Shown: in pieces, positions 6,204-59,680 of the stretch | How the letters are laid out: the number at the start of each line of letters is the position of its first letter | Numbering within the stretch: the first letter of the stretch is position 1 | Origin: Mustelus asterias | Taxonomy: Eukaryota | DNA: 64,000 bases | Direction of reading: 5' to 3' | Assembly: GCF_964213995.1 (NCBI RefSeq) | Contig: NW_027590123.1 | Span: forward strand, 2,418,001-2,482,000 | Notes under the pieces: model-generated | Told to the model about the DNA's origin: nothing | What the model saw: the letters and a program-made list of their open reading frames with translations, nothing else | The model's database searches: none | Translations under genes and position numbers: made by a program

Positions 6204-7225
6204 GGCAATTGGAAGGAAGGATTTGCAGTTGGAAAACTCAAACTAAACATCGCATCAGAATCTGATGGAGTCACTCAATTTATCCAAACCTGAAATCATT
6301 GTGTTGTAAACATGGAAGGAGAAAGTACCATTCACAGTGGGGAGAAAGCGTCCGTGTGTTGTGTGTGTGTGGATGAGGCTTCATCTGATTATAGAACCTG
6401 GAGAGACACAGGACACCCACAGCATGGAGAAACTGTGGAAATGTGAGGACTGTGGGAAGGGATTCAGTTACTCAGTTATACTGGAAACTCATCAGTGTGT
6501 TCACACTGGGGAGAGGCCATTTACCTGCACCGAGTGTGGGAAGAGCTTCGTGAATTCAACCAACCTGCTGAGACACCAGCTCGTTCACACTGGGGAGAGG
6601 CCGTTCACCTGCACTGAATGTGGGAAGGGATTCACTCATTCATCACATCTGTTGAGACACCAACCAGTTCACACTGCAGAGAGACCTTTTAAATACACAG
6701 ACTGTGTGAAGTGCTGCAAAACTTCTGGGAACTGAAGCACCATCAACATGTTCACACTGACATGAGACCATTCAGGTGCTCTCATTGTGGGACTGGGTTC
6801 ACACAATCATCTGACCTCACTGTCCACCAGTGGATTCACACTGGGGAGAGGCCACTCACCTGCAAAGAGTGTGGGAAGGGATTTGCTCAGATGTCCACTC
6901 TGCTGACACACCAGTGGATTCACACTGGGAAGAGACCATTCACCTGCCCTGAGTGTGGAAAGGGATTCATTAATTCATCCCACCTGCTAACCCACCAGCA
7001 GATCCACACTGATGAGACTGAACTGCGGAAAGTGCAACAAAAGTTCCAGGGAACTGCTGTCCCATCAACAAATCCACACTGACTAGAGACAATTCAAGTG
7101 TTGTCATTTTTGGTCTGAGTTCAGGTAACCTCATCTCACTGTACACCAGTGCATTGACACTGAGGAGAGAATGTTCACTCCCTCTGAATGTGGGAAGAGA
7201 GTCACTCATTCGTCCCATCCACTGA
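6204..7225 (+). pseudogene. C2H2 zinc-finger pseudogene B
   Basis: Acceptor tttcacag|G at 6203; finger array split over frames (ORFs 6337-6735 and 6711-7082); degenerate fingers at both ends. Confidence 0.85.
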
Positions 7226-9564: not shown

Positions 9565-10541
9565 TTACTTGTGAACTCGCTGGTGCCTCAGCTGTGTGGA
9601 TGAACGACTGAATCTCTTTCCACACACTGAGCACGGAAATGGCCTCTCCCCGGTGTGAACTCGCTGGTGTGTCAGCAGGGTGGATGACTGAGTGAATCCC
9701 TTCCCACACACTGAGCAGATGAACGGCCTCTCCCCAGTGTGAACTCGCTGGTGATTAAGTAGGTTGGACATCCAAGTGAAGCCTTTCCCACAGAAAAAGC
9801 AGGTGAAGGGTCTCTCCCTGGTGTGAGTGAGTTGGTGCATCAGCAGATCCGTCTGGCTTTTAAAGCACTTCTCACAGTCAGGACATTTAAACAGTCTCTT
9901 ATCAGTATGAACAAGTTGGTGTGTCAGTAGGTCGAATCAACGGGTAAATCCCTTCCCACACACGGAGCAGGGGAACAGTCTCTCCCCAGTGTGAGTGCGT
10001 TTATGATTCAACAGATCATTTTTCCTTTTATAGTTTTTCTCACAGTCAGAACATTGGAAAGGTCTCTCCTCACTGTGGATTCGATGGTGTGACAGGAGGT
10101 GGGATGAGTTTGTGAAGTCTTTCCCACAGACGGAGCAGGTGAATGGTCTCTCCCCAGTGTGAACACGCCGGTGTCTTAGAAGGTGGGATGATTTAGTGAA
10201 TCCTTTCTGACACACAGAGCAAGTGAATGGCCTCTCCCCAGTGTGACTGCGGTGATGAATATGTAACTCAGATGGGTAATCAAATCCCTTCCCACAGTCT
10301 CCACATTTCCACGGTTTCTCCCCAGTGGGACAACACTTGTGTTTTGACAGGTTTGATGAGCGACTGAAACCTCGTCCATACACAGAACATGTAAACACCT
10401 TCTCCCCATTGTGAACGGTGCTTTTTGATTCCATGTTCAAAGGTCGATGATGTTCAGGCCCTGATGATTTGGGTGTCTGTCAGATCCTGATGTGATGTTT
10501 GATCTGAGTTTCCCACCTACAAATCATCCTCTTCTAATATG
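9565..10541 (-). pseudogene. C2H2 zinc-finger gene C (9 fingers) with one in-frame TGA; pseudogene or truncated allele
   Basis: ORFs 9937-10440 and 9565-9840 share a frame and are separated only by TGA at 9937-9939 plus 32 sense codons; ATG at 10434; acceptor at 10541. Confidence 0.85.
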
Positions 10542-23765: not shown

Positions 23766-23774
23766 TCATTTGAT
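23766..23774 (-). CDS. IGHM: IgM TM2 exon (IK*), giving cytoplasmic tail KIK
   Basis: ttattttacag|ATC AAA TGA, 140 nt after the TM1 donor. Confidence 0.85.
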   Translation of the reverse strand: MK

Positions 23775-23914: not shown

Positions 23915-24042
23915 CTTCACCAGAGTGACTGCAGTGCTGTAGAAAATGCTCAGGAAGAACAGCACGATGAATGTAGAAGCGGTTGTCCAGATGTTGCTGT
24001 TATCATCCTCATTGTCGTCAATCCAGACGCGGTCGGTGGAGT
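23915..24042 (-). CDS. IGHM: IgM transmembrane exon TM1 (DSTDRVWIDDNEDDNSNIWTTASTFIVLFFLSIFYSTAVTLVK)
   Basis: Acceptor cccctag|AC in phase with the Cmu4 internal donor; acidic spacer and CART motif (WTTASTF..LF.LS..YS); donor AAG|GTGAG. Absent from the ORF track, translated by hand. Confidence 0.95.
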
Positions 24043-27168: not shown

Positions 27169-27560
27169 TCATTGACATGAATTAACGGTGTCCATCAGAG
27201 CAAGGGAAATGTTCACAAAACTGGGTTTACCGCTGGATTTGTCAACTGTTCTGTTGATGATCTTCAAGGGGATGGCTTCATGTCCCACCACACAGGAGTA
27301 AGAAGCGCCGCTGGACCATTCCTCTGCAGCAATGGATAACAGGCTGTACATGAAGAAGGAGCTATTCCCGCTCTCCGCGACCACCTCGGTGTTCTTATAG
27401 TTCCCAGGATTCACCGGCTTGTCGTTGACGGTCCACTTGACGAAGATCTCTCGAGGGGAGAAACGTCTCACTAAGCAGCTGAGGGAGACGAATCTCTGAG
27501 CGGAGACTTCTTCTGCCGAGGGCAGGAGGACAGAGACGAACGGTTCCCGCGGATTTGGAT
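27169..27560 (-). CDS. IGHM: IgM Cmu4 plus secretory tailpiece (…[43 protein letters not shown])
   Basis: Acceptor ttctgcag|AT; tailpiece with an N-glycosylation sequon and penultimate Cys; internal donor G|GTAAAC at 27230 for the membrane form. Confidence 0.96.
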
Positions 27561-28061: not shown

Positions 28062-28370
28062 CTGTTTCCTTGTGGATGGATTTTCTTAAAGGAGTCGGTA
28101 GATCCTGATGGCTCACCACGCAGTCAAACACAGCCGCACTCAGCCAGGCTTGTGTCGAGATGTTTAAGTTGCTGACCACGCTGTCAGGATCCGCTCCAGG
28201 CTTTTCAGCAATCTCTGATTTCAAATACTTCCTGTCTCGGATCCAGGACACGTTGACTCCATAAGGAGCATGAGAAATGATGCAGGTTAAGGTCACGGTC
28301 GCCTCCAGTAAGACCTGTTCTATTGGTGGTGGCTGTATCGTCACTGTGGTATCAGGGCACTGGGGAGGAT
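28062..28370 (-). CDS. IGHM: IgM constant exon Cmu3 ([30 protein letters not shown]...[22 protein letters not shown])
   Basis: Acceptor ttcacag|AT, donor G|GTGAG; open C1-set domain with the HxDLPxP motif. Confidence 0.95.
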
Positions 28371-29287: not shown

Positions 29288-29599
29288 CCAGAGATCCGCT
29301 GATGTTCTGACTCTGAGTGAATCCTTGATGAGTGACCTGGCAGGTATAGACTACTTTGCTGAACCATTCCTGAGCGGAGACTGTCAACCGACTGCTGGCC
29401 GAGAATTTCCCGTTCACTTCACAGGCGGGAGAGGTGACAATTCCTGAATCCATGGGTTGTCCATTCTTCAGCCACTTCACCGTCATTGACTTTGGCTGGA
29501 AATCGATGATTGAACAGACGATGGTTGCAAATTTTCTGCTGGTGATTTCTTCACTGGAACTCACGGTGAGGATAACGGTTGCCGGGGGAACGGGTGAGC
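29288..29599 (-). CDS. IGHM: IgM constant exon Cmu2 ([11 protein letters not shown]...VCSIIDFQP...W...YTCQVTH...SL)
   Basis: Acceptor gttgaag|GC, donor G|GTAAG; open C1-set domain. Confidence 0.95.
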
Positions 29600-39338: not shown

Positions 39339-39387
39339 CTGCAGTCACCGTCACCATGGTCCCTTGTCCCCAAGTAGTCAAAGTAGT
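39339..39387 (-). CDS. IGHJ: JH segment (TTLTTWGQGTMVTVTA)
   Basis: WGQG motif; donor G|GTAAG at 39338; preceded by a 23-RSS. Confidence 0.95.
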
Positions 39388-39426
39388 CACAGTGTCACAT
39401 TCGCTTGGCTGGGTCATACAATAACT
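39388..39426 (+). other. JH recombination signal sequence, 23-bp spacer
   Basis: Plus strand CACAGTG, 23 nt spacer, ACAATAACT abutting the J coding end. Confidence 0.93.
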
Positions 39427-39752
39427 GGCCCTGCAAAAAATAGACAGAAAAGCCGCCATTATTTTAAATATTCACAAACCTGAGGAAAAGCAAAGTCAAT
39501 TAATATTCATGAGATTATTATTGTATTTGTGGATACCGTTCGCTCTACATAAATAACCCTTATGTTTTGTATTTCACCGGGTATCACATGAACATGTTAT
39601 TGAAAACACCAAATGATAATTGAATAGTTATCATAAATTTTCCATTTGATTCTCGCTGTTTGTACAGAGCTGGACATAAATAATACAGCACTGCAAATAA
39701 TGTTGGATGGTAAAACAGAGCACTGACCCAGTCTCGGTCAATTAGTGCTGAG

Positions 39753-39818
39753 GGTTTTTGTATTGACAGTAACTGATGTGCCACCCCTATCACAGTGACA
39801 CACACTCGCACAAAAACT
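39753..39818 (-). other. DH segment (coding 39781-39790, ATAGGGGTGG) flanked by two 12-bp-spacer RSS
   Basis: Minus strand: AGTTTTTGT-12-CACTGTG | ATAGGGGTGG | CACATCA-12-ACAAAAACC. Confidence 0.92.
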
Positions 39819-40190
39819 GCACTTACTCTCTGTTCAGTATTGCCGCTCAATATTCACTTCAAATAGACCATTATTCGTGATGTAAATTACACTTCATGCA
39901 ACAGTTTACAAAACACAATCTAAAAACATCTCCTCCAAGTATCAGAAATATTAAAACGAGCGTTATATCCAGGTGTGTAATTGCTGAAACTGTTAACAGT
40001 AAATATAAACAGAGTGAAAAGCTCAGCCCATTATGTCTGTGTGTTTTCTTGGTTTAATGTTTAATTTTCACTAAGTTGGGTTTGTCAGAAGCAGTTGGTG
40101 TTTTGCTTCTGATCACTGTCGTTAGTGTTATATTTAAAACAGATACTGACCTTCAGGTTATGATGAAAGTTGCAGAATTCCCTCTCGAGC

Positions 40191-40229
40191 TGTTCTTGTT
40201 CGGGTCCATCCCTGGTTCCTCTCGCTGTG
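40191..40229 (-). other. VH recombination signal sequence, 23-bp spacer
   Basis: CACAGCG, 23 nt spacer, ACAAGAACA immediately 3' of the V coding end. Confidence 0.93.
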
Positions 40230-40534
40230 ATCTCCTGCACAGTAATAGATGGCGGTGTCTTCGGTCTTCAGCCTTGTCATGTCCAAAGAGAAGATGTTGG
40301 TTGAAGTGTCTTTGGACGCAGTAAATCGATCCTTAATTGCTGGGGCGTAGTTGTTGCTGGATGAAGTATAGTACCACACCAGCCACTCCAACCCCTGTCC
40401 TGGAACCTGCCGGATCCAACCCATGCCATAGCTGCTAAGATCGAAGCCGCTGGTTTTACAGGTCAGTTTCAGGGAGCCTCCTGGACGCCCGGTCTCTGCC
40501 TCTGGCTGAGTCAACACAACCTCCGACTGGACAC
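40230..40534 (-). CDS. IGHV: Ig heavy-chain V segment exon, intact ([42 protein letters not shown]...[10 protein letters not shown])
   Basis: Acceptor ttttacag|GT; both canonical Cys, WIRQ, GLEW and YYC motifs; open frame; followed directly by an RSS. Confidence 0.97.
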
Positions 40535-40666: not shown

Positions 40667-40712
40667 CGGATAAGAAAGTCAGCAACAAACTGAGAGAAAT
40701 CGCCGACCTCAT
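40667..40712 (-). CDS. IGHV: IgM VH leader exon (MRSAISLSLLLTFLS-G)
   Basis: ATG at 40712; 46-nt hydrophobic signal-peptide exon ending in a phase-1 donor G|GTGAGT; short intron to the V exon. Confidence 0.95.
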
Positions 40713-47410: not shown

Positions 47411-48001
47411 GTCATATATATTTGTAATGTTTGTTTCATGGGATGTGGGTGTCACTGAAAAGATCAGCATTTGGCCTTTGACCATCCCTACATGGCACTC
47501 GGAACGAACCCATTTCTATTTTGCTGGATCAGGACCCCGTTTATGTTAAATTAGAGTCTATCTCTGTTAATACACTGCTAGACTAGAAATCAGTTTATAT
47601 TGCACGAGCCACACTCTCTGGTTCAGTCATATTTGATCCTGACCCTGTGCATATTTCACTCGACTGTGTTAATGTTATGCCTGCACTTAACTTTGCCTCT
47701 ATTTGAATGATGTCTGCATTTCCCCGCGGTTCTACGAGAAGAAGAGATATTATGTTGGATGAAAAACAGTGGTCTCTGGCAGGATTCTGAAACAGGCAGT
47801 ATTGGATCGACAGTATTTGGTCGGTGCGGGCTTCCAGTGCCGAAGGGCCTGTTCCTCTGCAGTAAATTTCCTTGTTCTTTGTTCTGTGTTGACAGTGCAT
47901 GCTATAGAGGTCTTAGTATCCATTTTCAATGCAGTCAGCAGAAGTAGATTTCAGATAACACAGCTTCTTTTCCTTGTTTAAGAGGATGTTCCTTGTTTAA
48001 G

Positions 48002-50218
48002 AAGATGGTCCTCGGGTTGAAGTTCTGAACTGGAAAAAGGCCAAATTTGATGAAATGAGAAGGGATCTGGGAAGTGTGGATTGGCACAGGCTGTTCTCTG
48101 GTAAGGATGTAAATGGAAAGTGGGAGGCCTTCAAAGGAGAAATTTTGAGAGTGCAGAGTTTGTATGTTCCTGTCAGGATTAAAGGCAAAGTAAATAGGAA
48201 CAAGGAACCTTGGTTCTCGAGGGAGATTGTAACACTGATTAAGAGGAAGAGAGAGTTGTATGAAATGTACAGGCAGCAAGGAACACATCAGATGCACGAG
48301 GAGTATAAAAAGTGCAAGAAGCTCCTTAAGAGGGAAATCAGGAGGGCTAAAAGAAGACATGAGGTTGCTTTGGCAGACAGAGTGAAGGAAAATCCAAAGA
48401 GCTTCTATAGGTATGTTAGGAGCAAAAGGATAGTGAGAGATAAAATTGGTCCTCTTGAAGACCAGAGTGGTAGACTGTGTATGGAACCAAAAGAGATGGG
48501 GGAGATACTAATTGGTTTTTTTGCATCCGTATTTACTGAGGAAACGGGCATGGAGTCTACGGAAATAGGGCAAACTGGTAGGGAGGCCATGGAACCGTTA
48601 CAGATTAAAGGGGAGGAGGTGCTTGCTGTCTTGAGGCAAATCAGAGTGGATAAAACCCCAGGACCGGACAGGGTATTCCCACGGACCTTGAGGGAAGTGT
48701 TGAACTTGCAGGGGCCCTGGCAGACATATTTAAAATGTCAGTATTCACGGGGGAGGTGCCGGATGATTGGAGGGTGGCTCATGTTGTTTCGTTGTTTAAA
48801 AAAGGTTCCAAAAGAAATCCAGGAAATTATCAGCCAGTAAGTTTGACGTCGGTGGTGGGCAAGTTATTGGAAGGTGTGATACGGGATAGGATCTACAAAT
48901 ATTTGGATAGACAGGGACTTATTAGGTAGAGTCAACATGGCTTTGTGCGTGGTAGGTCATGTTTGACCAATCTATTAGAGTCTTTCGAGGAGGTTACCAG
49001 GAAAGTGGATGAAGGGAAGGCGGTGGAAGTTGTCTACCTGGATTTCAGCAAGGCCTTTGACAAGGTCCCTCATGGGAGGTTAGTTAGGAAGGTTCAGTCG
49101 CTAGGTATACATGGGGAGGTAGTAAATTGGATTAGACACTGGCTCAATGGAAGAAGCCAGAGAGTGGTTGTGGAGGATTGCTTCTCTGAGTGGAGGCCTG
49201 TGACTAGTGGTGTGCCGCAGGGATCGGTGTTGGGTCCATTGTTGTTTGTCATCTATATCAATGATCTGGATGATAATGTGGTCAATTGGATCAGCAAGTT
49301 TGCTGATGATACAAAGATTGGAGGTGTAGTGGACAGTGAGGAAGGTTTTCAAAGCTTGCAGAGGGATTTGGACCAACTAGAAAAATGGGCTGAAAAATGG
49401 CAAATGGAATTTAACGCAGACAAGTGTGAGATATTGCACTTTGGAAGGACAAATCAAAGTAGAACGTACAGGGTAAATGGTAGGACTCTGAAGAGTGCAG
49501 TTGAACAGAGGGATCTGGGAATACAGGTACAGAATTCCCTAAAAGTGACGTCACAGGTGGATAGGGTCGTAAAGAGTGCCTTTGGTACATTGGCCTTTAT
49601 AAATCGGAGTATCGAGTATAAAAGTTGGAGTGTTATGGTAAGGTTACATAAGGCATTGGTGAGGCCGAATTTGGAGTATTGTGTACAGTTTTGGTCACCT
49701 AGTTACAGGAAGGATGTAAATAAGATTGAAAGAGTGCAGAGAAGGTTCACAAGGATGTTGCCGGGACTTGAGAAGCTGAGTTACAGAGAGAGCTTGAATA
49801 GGTTGGGACTTTATTCCCTGGAGCGTAGAAGATTGAGGGGAGATTTGATCGAGGTGTATAAGATTTTGATGGGTATAGATCGAGTGAATGCAAGCAGGCT
49901 TTTTCCGCTGAGGCTAGGGGAGAAAAAAAACCAGAGGGCATGGGTTAAGGGTGAAAGGAGGAAAGTTTAAAGGGTATTAGGGGGGGCTTCTTCACGCAGA
50001 GAGTGGTGGGAGTGTGGAATGAGCTGCCGGATAAAGTGGTAAATGCGGGGACACTTTTAACATTTAAGAAAAACTTGGACGGGTTCATGGATGAGAGGGG
50101 TGTGGAGGGATATGGTCCAAGTGCAGGTCAGTGGGACTAGGCATAAAATGGTTCGGCACAGACAAGAAGGGCCAAGAGGCCTGTTTCTGAGCTGTAATTT
50201 TCTATGGTTCTATGGTTC
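48002..50218 (+). mobile_element. Young 5'-truncated CR1 LINE (ORF2 RT nearly intact)
   Basis: ORFs of 261, 64 and 341 aa in tandem with few disablements; YLDFSKAFDKVPH, GVPQGSVLGP, FADDTK; (ttctatgg)n tail. Confidence 0.95.
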
Positions 50219-56974: not shown

Positions 56975-58975
56975 TAAGACCATAAGTCCATAAGACATAA
57001 GAAATAGGAGCAGAATGAGGCCACTCGGTCCATCGAGTCTGCTCCCGCCATTCAATGATGGCTGATATTTTTCTCATCTATATTCTCTTGCCTTTTCCCC
57101 ATAACCACTGATCCTCTTATTAATCACGAACCCATCTATCTCTGTCTTAAAAACACCCAATGACCTGGCCTCCAACCTTATACGGCAAGAGATCCACAGA
57201 TCCACCACACTCTGGCCGAAGAAATTCCTCCTCAGCTCTGTTTTAAACGATCGTCCCTTTAGTCTGAGGTTGTGCCCTCTGGTTCTAGTTGTTCCTACGA
57301 GTGGAAACATCCTCCCCACGCCCACTCTATCCAGGCCTTGCAGTATCCTGAAAGATTCAATAAGATCTCCCCTCATCTTTCAAAACTCCAACGAGTACAG
57401 ATCCAGAGGACTCAACCGTTCCTCATACAGCAAGCCCTTCATTCCAGGCATCATTCTTGTGAAACTCCACTGGACCCTTTCCATGGCCAGCACATCCTTC
57501 CGAAGATATGGGGCCCAAAACTGCTCACAATACTCCAATTGGGTCTGACCAGAGCCTTGTACAGCCTCAGAGGTATATCCCTGCTCTTGCATTCTAGCCC
57601 TCTCGACATGAATGCTAACATTGCATTTGCCTTCCTGAACCTGCACTTTAACCTTAAGAGAATCTTGAACAATGACTCCCACGTCCCTTCGTATTTTTGA
57701 TTTCCTCAGCATTTTCCCATTTAGAAAATAGTCTATGCCTCCATTCCTCCTTCCAAGAGCATAACCTCACATTTTTCCAAATTGTATTCGAGCTGCCACA
57801 TCTTTGCCGACTCTGCTAACCTGTCCAAGCCCTTCTGCAGCCCCCCTGCTTCCTCAATACTACCTGTCCCTCTACATATCTTTGTATCATCTGCAACCTT
57901 AGCAACAGTGCCTTCAGTTCCTTCCTCCAAATCGTTAATGCATACTGTGAAAAGTTGTGGTCCCAGCACTGACCCCTGAGGCACACCACTAGTCACCGGC
58001 TGCCATCCTGAGAAAGACCCCTTTATTCCCACTCTCTGCCTTCTGCTAATCAACCAATCCTCTATCCATGACAGGATCTTACCCTTAACACCATGTGCAC
58101 TTAACTTATTTAACAGTCTCTTTTTCGGCACCATGTCAAAGGCCTTCTGGAAATCTAAATAAATCATGTCCACTGGCTCTCATTTATCTAACTTCCTTGT
58201 TACCTCCTCAAATAACTCTAACAGATTTGTCAGATATTACCTCCCCTTCAGAAAACTGTGCTGACTCAGTCCTTCTTTATCATGCACTTCCATGGACTCT
58301 GCGATCTCATCTTTAATAATGGAATTTAAAGTCTTGCCAATGACCGAAGCCAGGCTAACCGGCCTATAAATTCTCGTCTGCTGCCTGCCTCCCATCTTAA
58401 ACAGTGGTGTTGCATTCGCTACTTTCCAGTCCTCTGGTACAGTCCCTGCCTCCAGTGATTTCTGAAAGACCACCACCAATGCTTCCACAATTTCCTCAGT
58501 TATCTCTTTTAGAAACCTGTGGTGTAGTCCTTCCGGTCCAGGTGAATTATCCACCTTCAGACCTTTCATTTTCCCCAGAACCTTCTCCTTAGTGATGGCC
58601 ACTGCAGTTACCTGTGCCCCCGGACTCTCCTGGAGCTCTGGAATTCCACTGGTGTCTTCCACCGTGAAGACTGATGCAAAGTAACTATTCAGTTCCTCTG
58701 CCATTGCTTTGTTTCCTATTATTACTTCTCCAGTCTAATTTTCCAGTGGTCCAATGTCAATGTTTGCGTCTTTCTTACCTTTTTTTAGATTGAAAAGAAC
58801 TCTCCCTGTCTTATTTGATATTACTAGCTCGCTTACACTCATATTGCATCTTCTCCCCCCTTATTGCTTTTTTAGTTGTCCTCTGCTCGCTTATAAATAC
58901 GTCCCAATCCTCTGGCTTCCCACTAATCTTTGCCGCTTTGTATGCTTTAACTTTTGCTTTAATGCTGTGCTTGAC
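56975..58975 (-). mobile_element. CR1 LINE ORF2 fragment with (cataaga)n tail
   Basis: YLDFQKAFD, GVPQGSVLGP, ADDTK and MRGDLIE motifs on the minus strand. Confidence 0.92.
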
Positions 58976-59099
58976 CTTTATGCTGTGCGACAACCTTTAG
59001 TCCTTCCAGATTTTCTCGGTGAATTCAATCCCCGAGATATCGGGAACAAATGAACTAAGAGCAGTCTGATTTTTTTTCCATCTGCTGATGGTGACTCGA

Positions 59100-59680
59100 G
59101 TCATAGAGTCATAGAGGTTGAGAGCATGGACACAAGCATTTCGGCCCTACTTGTCCATACCGCCCTTTTTATTAACCGTTAAGCTTGTCCCAATTTCCCG
59201 CGTTTGGCCCATAACCCTCTGTACCCATCCTACCCATGTAACTGTCTAAACCCTTTTTAAAAGACAAAATTGTACCCGCCTCTACCACTACCCCTGGCAG
59301 CCTGTTCCAGACACTTGCCACACTCTGTGTGAAACAATATCCCCTCTGAACCATTTTGTATCTCTCCACTCTCATCTTAAACCTATGCCCTCTCGTTTTA
59401 GACTCCTCTACCATTGGGAAAACATATTGACTATCGAGCTGATCTATGCACCTCATTATTTTATAGACTTCTATAAGATTCCCCCCAAGCCTCCTACGCT
59501 CCGGAGAAAAAGTCCCAGTCTATCCAGCCTCTCCCTACAACTCAAACCATCAAGGCCTCGTAGCATTCTAGTAAAACTTTTCTGCATTCTTTCTAGTTTA
59601 ATAATATCCGTTCTATAATAGGGTAACCAGAACTGTACACAGCATTCCAAGTGTAGCCTCACTGATGTCTTCAAAATCTT
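59100..59680 (-). mobile_element. CR1 3' fragment (same subfamily as 15590-16450)
   Basis: HLECCVQFW…DIIKLER and DQLDSQYVFP. Confidence 0.88.

What the first reader, a model, noticed from the sequence alone, without database searches (positions are those of the whole stretch)
39339..40229. IgM cluster with a single 12/12 D: possible germline D1-D2 fusion
Seen: V(23), about 400 bp, 12-D-12, about 400 bp, (23)J. I found no second RSS-flanked D in either spacer. Known: the horn-shark and nurse-shark IgM cluster pattern is V-D1-D2-J, with D1 flanked 12/23 and D2 flanked 12/12, and RAG-like germline joins (VD, VDD, VDJ) occur in cartilaginous fish. Inference: joining D1 to D2 in the germline would leave exactly a 12-D-12 segment, with a D1-type 5' flank and a D2-type 3' flank. 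This would be a DD-joined, still rearranging cluster with a tetrapod-like V-D-J layout and shorter CDR3s.
Basis: partly seen in the sequence, partly recalled or inferred. Interest (0 to 1): 0.8.

Follow-up and report, generated by a model that had tools for sequence, protein, structure and literature searches.

The report
Shark IgM gene with pre-fused Ds
This intact shark antibody gene has one diversity piece made of the fused ends of the usual two, likely joined in the inherited DNA by the immune cut-and-paste enzyme, so it would need two joins instead of three and is predicted to give shorter binding loops.

Summary
Confirmed. The minus strand holds an IgM cluster with open exons and canonical splice borders, laid out V(23)-(12)D(12)-(23)J with a 10-nt D. 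The fusion predictions hold. The V-side spacer aligns without gaps (439/439, 98.6%) to the V-D1 spacer of two-D paralogues, and the J-side spacer (393/393, 98.7%) to the D2-J spacer. The whole D1-D2 spacer and both inner signals (394-396 bp) are gone, and the breakpoints lie inside the coding ends (3 nt D1 + 7 nt D2, 0-1 added base). Two Ds are the norm (46 of 96 loci), but the layout is not unique: 11 of 96 loci are V-DD-J, with six different junctions, and two have near-identical relatives that went on to VDD-J. Best reading: a RAG-type join in the germ line (0.8). This junction is single-copy, so a somatic join caught in the assembly is not excluded. Expression and the variant D 3' signal are untested. 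Germline joins are known in sharks and D1-D2 fusion in IgNAR type III; eight searches found germline V-DD-J IgM nowhere explicitly. The scan noted similar clusters before, in this and another genome.

The parts
40667..40712 (-). Leader exon (start codon to GT donor)
   Evidence: exon borders; an AT-rich TATA-like box lies about 90 bp upstream
40230..40534 (-). VH exon, open frame, both cysteines
   Evidence: paralogues 79-99% identical
40191..40229 (-). V RSS, 23-bp spacer
   Evidence: identical to the V RSS of 12 of 45 unjoined clusters
39791..40229 (-). V-D spacer, homologous end to end to the V-D1 spacer
   Evidence: 439/439 nt, no gap, 98.6% to L031
39791..39818 (-). D left RSS, 12-bp spacer, D1 type
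   Evidence: identical to the D1-left RSS of 6 of 45 unjoined clusters; at least 7 mismatches to any D2-left RSS
39781..39790 (-). Fused D1-D2 coding segment, 10 nt: first 3 nt of D1 plus last 7 nt of D2, 0-1 untemplated base; 2 of 3 frames open
   Evidence: found once in the assembly
39753..39780 (-). D right RSS, 12-bp spacer, D2 type, variant heptamer
   Evidence: identical to the D2-right RSS of 1 of 45 unjoined clusters (L002); same heptamer in L038 and L039
39388..39780 (-). D-J spacer, homologous end to end to the D2-J spacer
   Evidence: 393/393 nt, no gap, 98.7% to L031 and 99.0% to L038
39388..39426 (-). J RSS, 23-bp spacer
   Evidence: identical in 1 of 45 unjoined clusters
39339..39387 (-). 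JH, 49 nt, one extra base before the Trp codon; FR4 frame has no stop; GT donor
   Evidence: extra base shared with L002, L038, L039
30570..30869 (-). C-mu 1 exon, open
29288..29599 (-). C-mu 2 exon, open
28062..28370 (-). C-mu 3 exon, open
27169..27560 (-). C-mu 4 exon with secretory tail, open
   Evidence: 96% identical to a protein named IgM heavy chain of Triakis scyllium, 87-88% to nurse shark mu chains
23915..24042 (-). Transmembrane exon 1
23766..23774 (-). Transmembrane exon 2 (two codons and stop)

Best explanation
This is an intact shark IgM cluster whose single 12/12 D is the 5' end of D1 fused to the 3' end of D2, likely made by RAG cutting and end-joining in a germ cell, and predicted to finish assembly in B cells with two joins (V to D, D to J) instead of three. 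Shown: the layout, the origin of both flanks, the loss of the D1-D2 spacer with both inner signals, the breakpoints within the coding ends, and open exons. Inferred: RAG paired D1's 22-RSS with D2's left 12-RSS and deleted about 395 bp; the ends were trimmed (D1 by 11-12 nt, D2 by 6 nt) and joined with little or no TdT addition; the product was inherited. Predicted: the outer signals still obey the 12/23 rule, so the cluster rearranges like a one-D mammalian unit, with 34 instead of 50 untrimmed templated bases between the V Cys and J Trp codons and one fewer N region.
For: Both spacers align end to end without gaps to the V-D1 and D2-J spacers. The left RSS is D1-type (6 of 45 exact, at least 7 mismatches to D2-left) and the right one D2-type. 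394-396 bp are missing relative to 8 of 8 unjoined subfamily members. Both breakpoints fall in the 14- and 13-nt coding segments; a rough chance figure for a random deletion in the V-J interval is 2.4e-4. The junction has 0-1 untemplated base, as in germline joins with little TdT activity (PMC2193156 passages), whereas somatic shark IgH joins show N/P addition (PMC2435157 section 10). The class is heritable here: one DD junction is in 4 loci whose flanks differ and another in 2 diverged pseudogenes. The DD label needs 6 changes on a tree of 81 rows, 5 of them forced by starred branches. DD segments appear to recombine further: L043 and L079 (VDD-J) carry the DD junctions of L042 and L080/L082 and are 99.8-99.9% identical to them over 5 kb. 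No unjoined twin of this cluster was found: best other hits are 96-97% on both flanks.
Against: This junction occurs once in the assembly, so inheritance is shown for the class, not for this copy. V-DD-J is a normal somatic intermediate in nurse shark lymphocytes, especially thymocytes (PMC2435157), and near-identical sets in different join states (L051/L042/L043, 99.7-99.9%) are also what somatic reads could leave in an assembly. D1 and D2 start with the same 3 bases, so only the flank, not the coding part, proves D1's share, and D1 lost 11-12 of its 14-15 nt. Of the six DD junctions, one is too decayed to parse (18 nt unexplained) and one has a changed left heptamer. The D 3' heptamer has 3 changes from consensus and no D-to-J join through this variant was seen; J's extra base shifts its usual 5' reading out of frame.
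Confidence: 0.8

Rival explanations
1. A somatic D1-D2 join from a lymphocyte (or a local assembly path through such reads) was built into the contig; the inherited cluster has two Ds.
For: [quoted passage not shown] The junction is single-copy. 50 of 96 loci lack at least one spacer, some next to near-identical less-joined copies. One locus shows an IgM-to-TCR-type join of the kind described as somatic (L028).
Against: 0-1 added base here and 0 in the four other DD junctions that parse, unlike somatic joins. Identical junctions recur in several loci, some with diverged flanks. No unjoined version of this cluster was found, and a junction private to one cell should lose to germline reads in a 2.5-Mb contig (inference).
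Confidence: 0.11
2. An inherited deletion without RAG: slippage or repair between the 11-bp repeat that D1 and D2 share at their left borders (heptamer plus first 3 coding bases), followed by loss of 3 more bases.
For: The repeat exists and the product would also have a D1 left flank and a D2 right flank. L021 carries a D1-like sequence in its D2 slot, so non-RAG exchange between D slots seems to occur.
Against: Such a deletion leaves a whole 13-nt D2; the segment is 10 nt. None of 9 DD segments found by pattern is a whole D2, and no D2 allele with this 10-nt core was found elsewhere. It needs two events where a RAG join needs one.
Confidence: 0.07
3. A primitive or separate single-D IgM lineage, or a cluster with a decayed second D.
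For: None beyond the layout itself.
Against: The locus nests in a 100/100-supported set of 14 rows with 8 unjoined two-D clusters; both spacers are gap-free matches to two-D spacers; no second RSS pair.
Confidence: 0.02

Closest known systems
Nurse shark IgNAR type III cluster with germline D1-D2 fusion (PMC4622739, passages)
   Same: D1 and D2 fused in the germ line, one somatic join fewer, restricted CDR3 diversity
   Different: IgNAR has three Ds and keeps two units after fusion; here it is IgM and one 12/12 D is left. Type III is known to be expressed in neonates; expression here is untested
Germline-joined IgM clusters of horn shark and little skate (listed as V DD-J, VDJ, V D1-D2J in PMC2193153; VD-J, VD-DJ, VDJ in PMC5192425)
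   Same: Same cluster type, same inferred germ-cell RAG origin, mixed with unjoined clusters
   Different: In those forms V or J is already joined; here V and J are both free. The printed form 'V DD-J' is ambiguous and the 1988 source paper was not held, so an earlier V-DD-J report cannot be excluded
Somatic V-DD-J intermediate of nurse shark IgM (PMC2435157)
   Same: Identical segment layout and RSS geometry
   Different: Somatic, unique per cell, with N/P additions, absent from red-cell DNA; here in an assembly with 0-1 added base
Germline-joined NS4 light-chain genes of nurse shark (PMC2193156)
   Same: RSS removed, ends trimmed, little TdT, several independent events nested among split genes
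   Different: Light chain V-J joins, dated 0-49 Myr and judged infrequent; here heavy-chain D-D joins, some with 99.8-99.9% identical less-joined relatives
Mammalian IgH V(23)-(12)D(12)-(23)J (recalled, textbook)
   Same: Same RSS geometry
   Different: Translocon with many V, D and J; here one of each in a cluster, and the likeness is a derived convergence

Membership tests
Elasmobranch IgM cluster | One V, D segment(s), one J and C-mu 1-4 with secretory tail and TM exons in one unit | tested here: met
Elasmobranch IgM cluster | Canonical V-D1-D2-J with D1 12/22-23 and D2 12/12 | tested here: not met
   One 12/12 D only; 46 of 96 loci have the canonical form
Germline-joined Ig cluster | Intervening DNA and both inner RSS removed, breakpoints in coding ends | tested here: met
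Germline-joined Ig cluster | Derived from unjoined relatives (nested among them) | tested here: met
   100/100 set of 14 rows with 8 unjoined
Germline-joined Ig cluster | Trimmed ends with little or no N addition | tested here: met
   0-1 added base; benchmark PMC2193156
Germline-joined Ig cluster | Present in non-lymphoid DNA and in other individuals | tested here: inconclusive
   Single copy in the assembly; no run holding this cluster closely was listed; class-level inheritance shown by multi-copy junctions
Functional rearranging IgH cluster | Open exons, splice sites and 12/23-compatible RSS | tested here: met
   D 3' heptamer is a rare variant (1 of 45)
Functional rearranging IgH cluster | Rearranged transcripts from this cluster | not testable with these tools
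   No RNA holder listed
IgNAR type III | NAR-type V and IgNAR constant domains | tested here: not met
   Constant region is mu; it works like type III only in the D1-D2 fusion

The most novel reading that the evidence does not exclude
Germ-line RAG activity in this shark is frequent and ongoing, not rare: it has made D1-D2 fusions at least six times, left stepwise series (unjoined, DD, VDD) at 99.8-99.9% identity and even an IgM-to-TCR-cassette join, and this locus is the one fully intact product, a working single-D IgM gene with mammalian RSS geometry that feeds short-CDR3 antibodies into the repertoire.
Probability: 0.3. Interest if true: 0.65.

Novelty: new variant of a known kind. Interest (0 to 1): 0.42.

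Why it matters
It fills a missing state in the known series of germline-joined shark IgH clusters and shows how a 12/12 single-D layout can arise from a two-D cluster in one step. Because it sits among 96-98% identical two-D relatives, it is a natural control for how D number sets CDR3 length and diversity. The near-identical clusters in different join states make the old question of how often RAG acts in shark germ cells testable by PCR on sperm and pedigrees. If they prove somatic, that is a warning about shark Ig loci in reference assemblies.

Tried and rejected
Sequencing runs: 20 listed, best share of words 0.51, no RNA holder listed, so nothing on expression. Contigs of 4 of those 20 runs were laid on 39560-40000: none of the 32 pieces shown (102 not shown) bridged the junction, and pieces broke there into D1- and D2-type loose ends; the runs differ from the window at many sites and seem to be other individuals or species, so this is no evidence either way. 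No further runs were laid, so presence in other animals stays open. A formal count of untemplated bases was made for the six DD junctions only; for the VD, VDD and DJ joins I only read the printout by eye. A shared origin with L041, whose D1 starts with the same 5 bases as this D and would give a 2-base microhomology join, is weak: its V-D spacer differs at 44 sites against 6-11 for the nearest relatives. Shared descent of this join with L038/L039 is rejected: they keep 2 more D2 bases. The variant heptamer and J base are shared with L002/L038/L039, but the tree does not group the window with them, so exchange between paralogues blurs the parent and I did not date the join. Papers: PMC2191167 gave no passage for my terms; PMC454840 and PMC7909615 are not held. 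The junction figure of PMC2435157 (Fig. S1) was seen only as its legend, so somatic N lengths were not compared numerically. A look-up of look-alike stretches in other scanned genomes returned nothing.

Full report
What is there. The window holds one IgM cluster on the minus strand: leader, VH, one D, JH, four constant exons with secretory tail and two membrane exons, all open and with canonical splice borders. The fourth constant exon is 96% identical to a protein named IgM heavy chain of Triakis scyllium and 87-88% to nurse shark mu chains, so the isotype is IgM and the animal is likely a shark near the houndsharks (inference). Between V and J lie four RSS: 23 after V, 12 and 12 around a 10-nt D (39790-39781), and 23 before J. 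A matrix from 45 unjoined paralogues scores them 19.7-26.3 (true range 12.4-28.0); the best interior sites score 8.6 and 5.9, near or below the 95th percentile of shuffles (8.4, 9.1), and the higher one also lies in two-D relatives.

Census of paralogues. A search of the genome with the V protein returned 150 hits, the cap, from 1335 candidates. I fetched 95 of the 149 other hits: the best 92 and 3 from lower ranks; the 54 left out are mostly below 58% identity or broken. I classed each locus by which of the three spacers of a two-D reference it keeps. Of 96 loci including the window: 46 unjoined, 9 VD1-D2-J, 15 VDD-J, 11 V-DD-J, 3 V-D1-D2J, 4 with only the first spacer (two V-DDJ, one cut by a satellite, one joined to a TCR-type D) and 8 with none (two of these not examined). 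Many rows are identical over 1 kb and may be uncollapsed haplotypes, so these are loci, not gene counts. Two Ds are therefore the norm, and single-D is a minority state.

Test of the fusion. The V-side spacer matches V-D1 spacers over 439 of 439 nt without a gap (98.6% to L031) and ends at the D1 left heptamer; the J-side spacer matches D2-J spacers over 393 of 393 nt (98.7%) and starts at the D2 right heptamer. The left RSS is identical to the D1-left RSS of 6 of 45 unjoined clusters and at least 7 mismatches from any D2-left RSS; the right RSS is identical to the D2-right RSS of L002. Against eight unjoined subfamily members 394-396 bp are missing, and the D1-D2 spacer has no trace in the window. 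The 10-nt segment parses as 3 nt of D1 plus 7 nt of D2 with no added base, or 3 plus 6 with one, depending on the D2 allele. A random deletion in the V-J interval would put both ends in these two short coding segments with a rough chance of 2.4e-4. This is the footprint of a 12/22 coding join.

It happened repeatedly. A pattern for a D1-type left RSS facing a D2-type right RSS found 9 places with 5 junctions and no control hit; the census adds a sixth in two pseudogenes. On a tree of 81 loci built from the D2-J spacer, J and intron, the DD label needs 6 changes, 5 forced by well-supported branches; the bootstrap had not fully settled. The window sits in a 100/100 set of 14 with 8 unjoined, 2 VD and 3 VDD loci. 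Two DD types have VDD-J counterparts with the same D-D junction and 99.8-99.9% identity over 5 kb (L042 to L043; L080/L082 to L079), which is best read as a later V-to-DD join. The other five DD types each show a lesion or weakened signal: lost J Trp codon (L080-L082), broken V heptamer (L072, L073, L076, L077), stops in V (L090, L095), a J heptamer with two changes (L042). I did not check their constant exons. The window's cluster is the only one of the 11 with none of these, though it has a rare D 3' heptamer (1 of 45) and one extra base in J.

Germline or somatic. V-DD-J is a known somatic intermediate in nurse shark lymphocytes (PMC2435157: passages; section 10). For a germline origin: 0-1 added base, as reported for germline light-chain joins (PMC2193156: passages), against N/P additions in somatic joins; other DD junctions recur in loci with diverged flanks; and no unjoined twin of this cluster was found, the best other hits being 96-97% on both sides among 40 scored candidates each. 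Against certainty: the junction is single-copy, I have no reads of this animal, and near-identical sets in different states (L051 unjoined, L042, L043) fit either recent germ-cell events or somatic reads. Lee et al. judged germline joining infrequent in nurse shark, so such sets need checking. I put the germline RAG join at 0.8, somatic capture at 0.11, and a homology-driven deletion at 0.07; the last would leave a whole D2, which none of the 9 pattern hits shows.

How it would work (predicted). V(23) can pair with the D left 12-RSS and the D right 12-RSS with J(23), so two joins complete the exon. Untrimmed templated length between the V Cys and J Trp codons is 34 nt here against 50 nt in L031 (arithmetic), with two junctions for N addition instead of three; nurse shark B-cell junctions of 24-78 bp are quoted in PMC2435157. 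Two of three D frames are open. J's extra base puts its usual 5' reading out of frame but adds no stop in the FR4 frame. Whether the variant heptamer is used, and whether the gene is expressed, is untested.

Prior knowledge. Germline-joined IgH clusters are known from horn shark and skate (PMC2193153: passages and first third of the text; reviews PMC5192425 and PMC4279169: passages). A germline D1-D2 fusion is known for nurse shark IgNAR type III (PMC4622739: passages). Eight full-text searches found V-DD-J named only in PMC2435157, as a somatic form. The library lacks most subscription papers and the 1988 source, and one review prints an ambiguous 'V DD-J', so novelty in print is probable, not shown. 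The scan's own notes report a similar single-D cluster in this genome and a broken V-DD-J in another; I did not test those loci.

Verdict. It is a new variant of a known kind: a D1-D2-joined IgM cluster, recurrent in this genome, with this copy the best preserved. Interest 0.42.

Noticed in passing
L028 (G000:C138:215673-218960, minus strand): An IgM V with its V-D1 spacer and whole D1 is joined, with no added base, to the trimmed D of a TCR-type (NAR-TCR-like) cassette, followed by that D's 23-RSS and TCR-type J segments. The unjoined cassette D has a 12-RSS on its left (L112). The D-J region has about ten 94-96% paralogues and no full-length twin. This looks like an IgM-to-TCR join fixed in the assembly; such joins are described as somatic (PMC12227049 passages).
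   Followed up: partly
L051, L042, L043 (C127, C306, C667) and L080, L082, L079, L081 (C104, C773, C110): Sets of 99.3-99.96% identical clusters in different join states (unjoined, DD, VDD); L081 has a different DD junction from L080/L082.
   Followed up: partly
L021 (G000:C166, D2 slot): The D2 slot holds an 11-nt D1-like sequence, the same as the DD segment of L042, between D2-type signals; possibly short gene conversion.
   Followed up: no
window 39372-39374; L002, L038, L039: One extra base in J before the Trp codon always goes with the variant D2 3' heptamer in these four loci.
   Followed up: partly
window 40233-40523 vs L001 (G000:C242): The V is 99.3% identical to that of a VD1-joined cluster whose downstream intron is only about 96.5% identical, a sign of exchange between paralogues.
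   Followed up: partly
L010 (G000:C91:1125988-1129280) and L096 (G000:C444): One cluster is cut in its V-D1 spacer by a long satellite array; another has J truncated by unrelated GC-rich sequence.
   Followed up: no
L111 (G000:C850:34500-38200): A TCR-type cassette with V already joined to D.
   Followed up: no
window 6693-7079 (+), 9568-9936 (-), 48001-49970 (+), 57074-59519: C2H2 zinc-finger reading frames downstream of the cluster and LINE-type reverse transcriptase fragments upstream (names from recall of the motifs).
   Followed up: no
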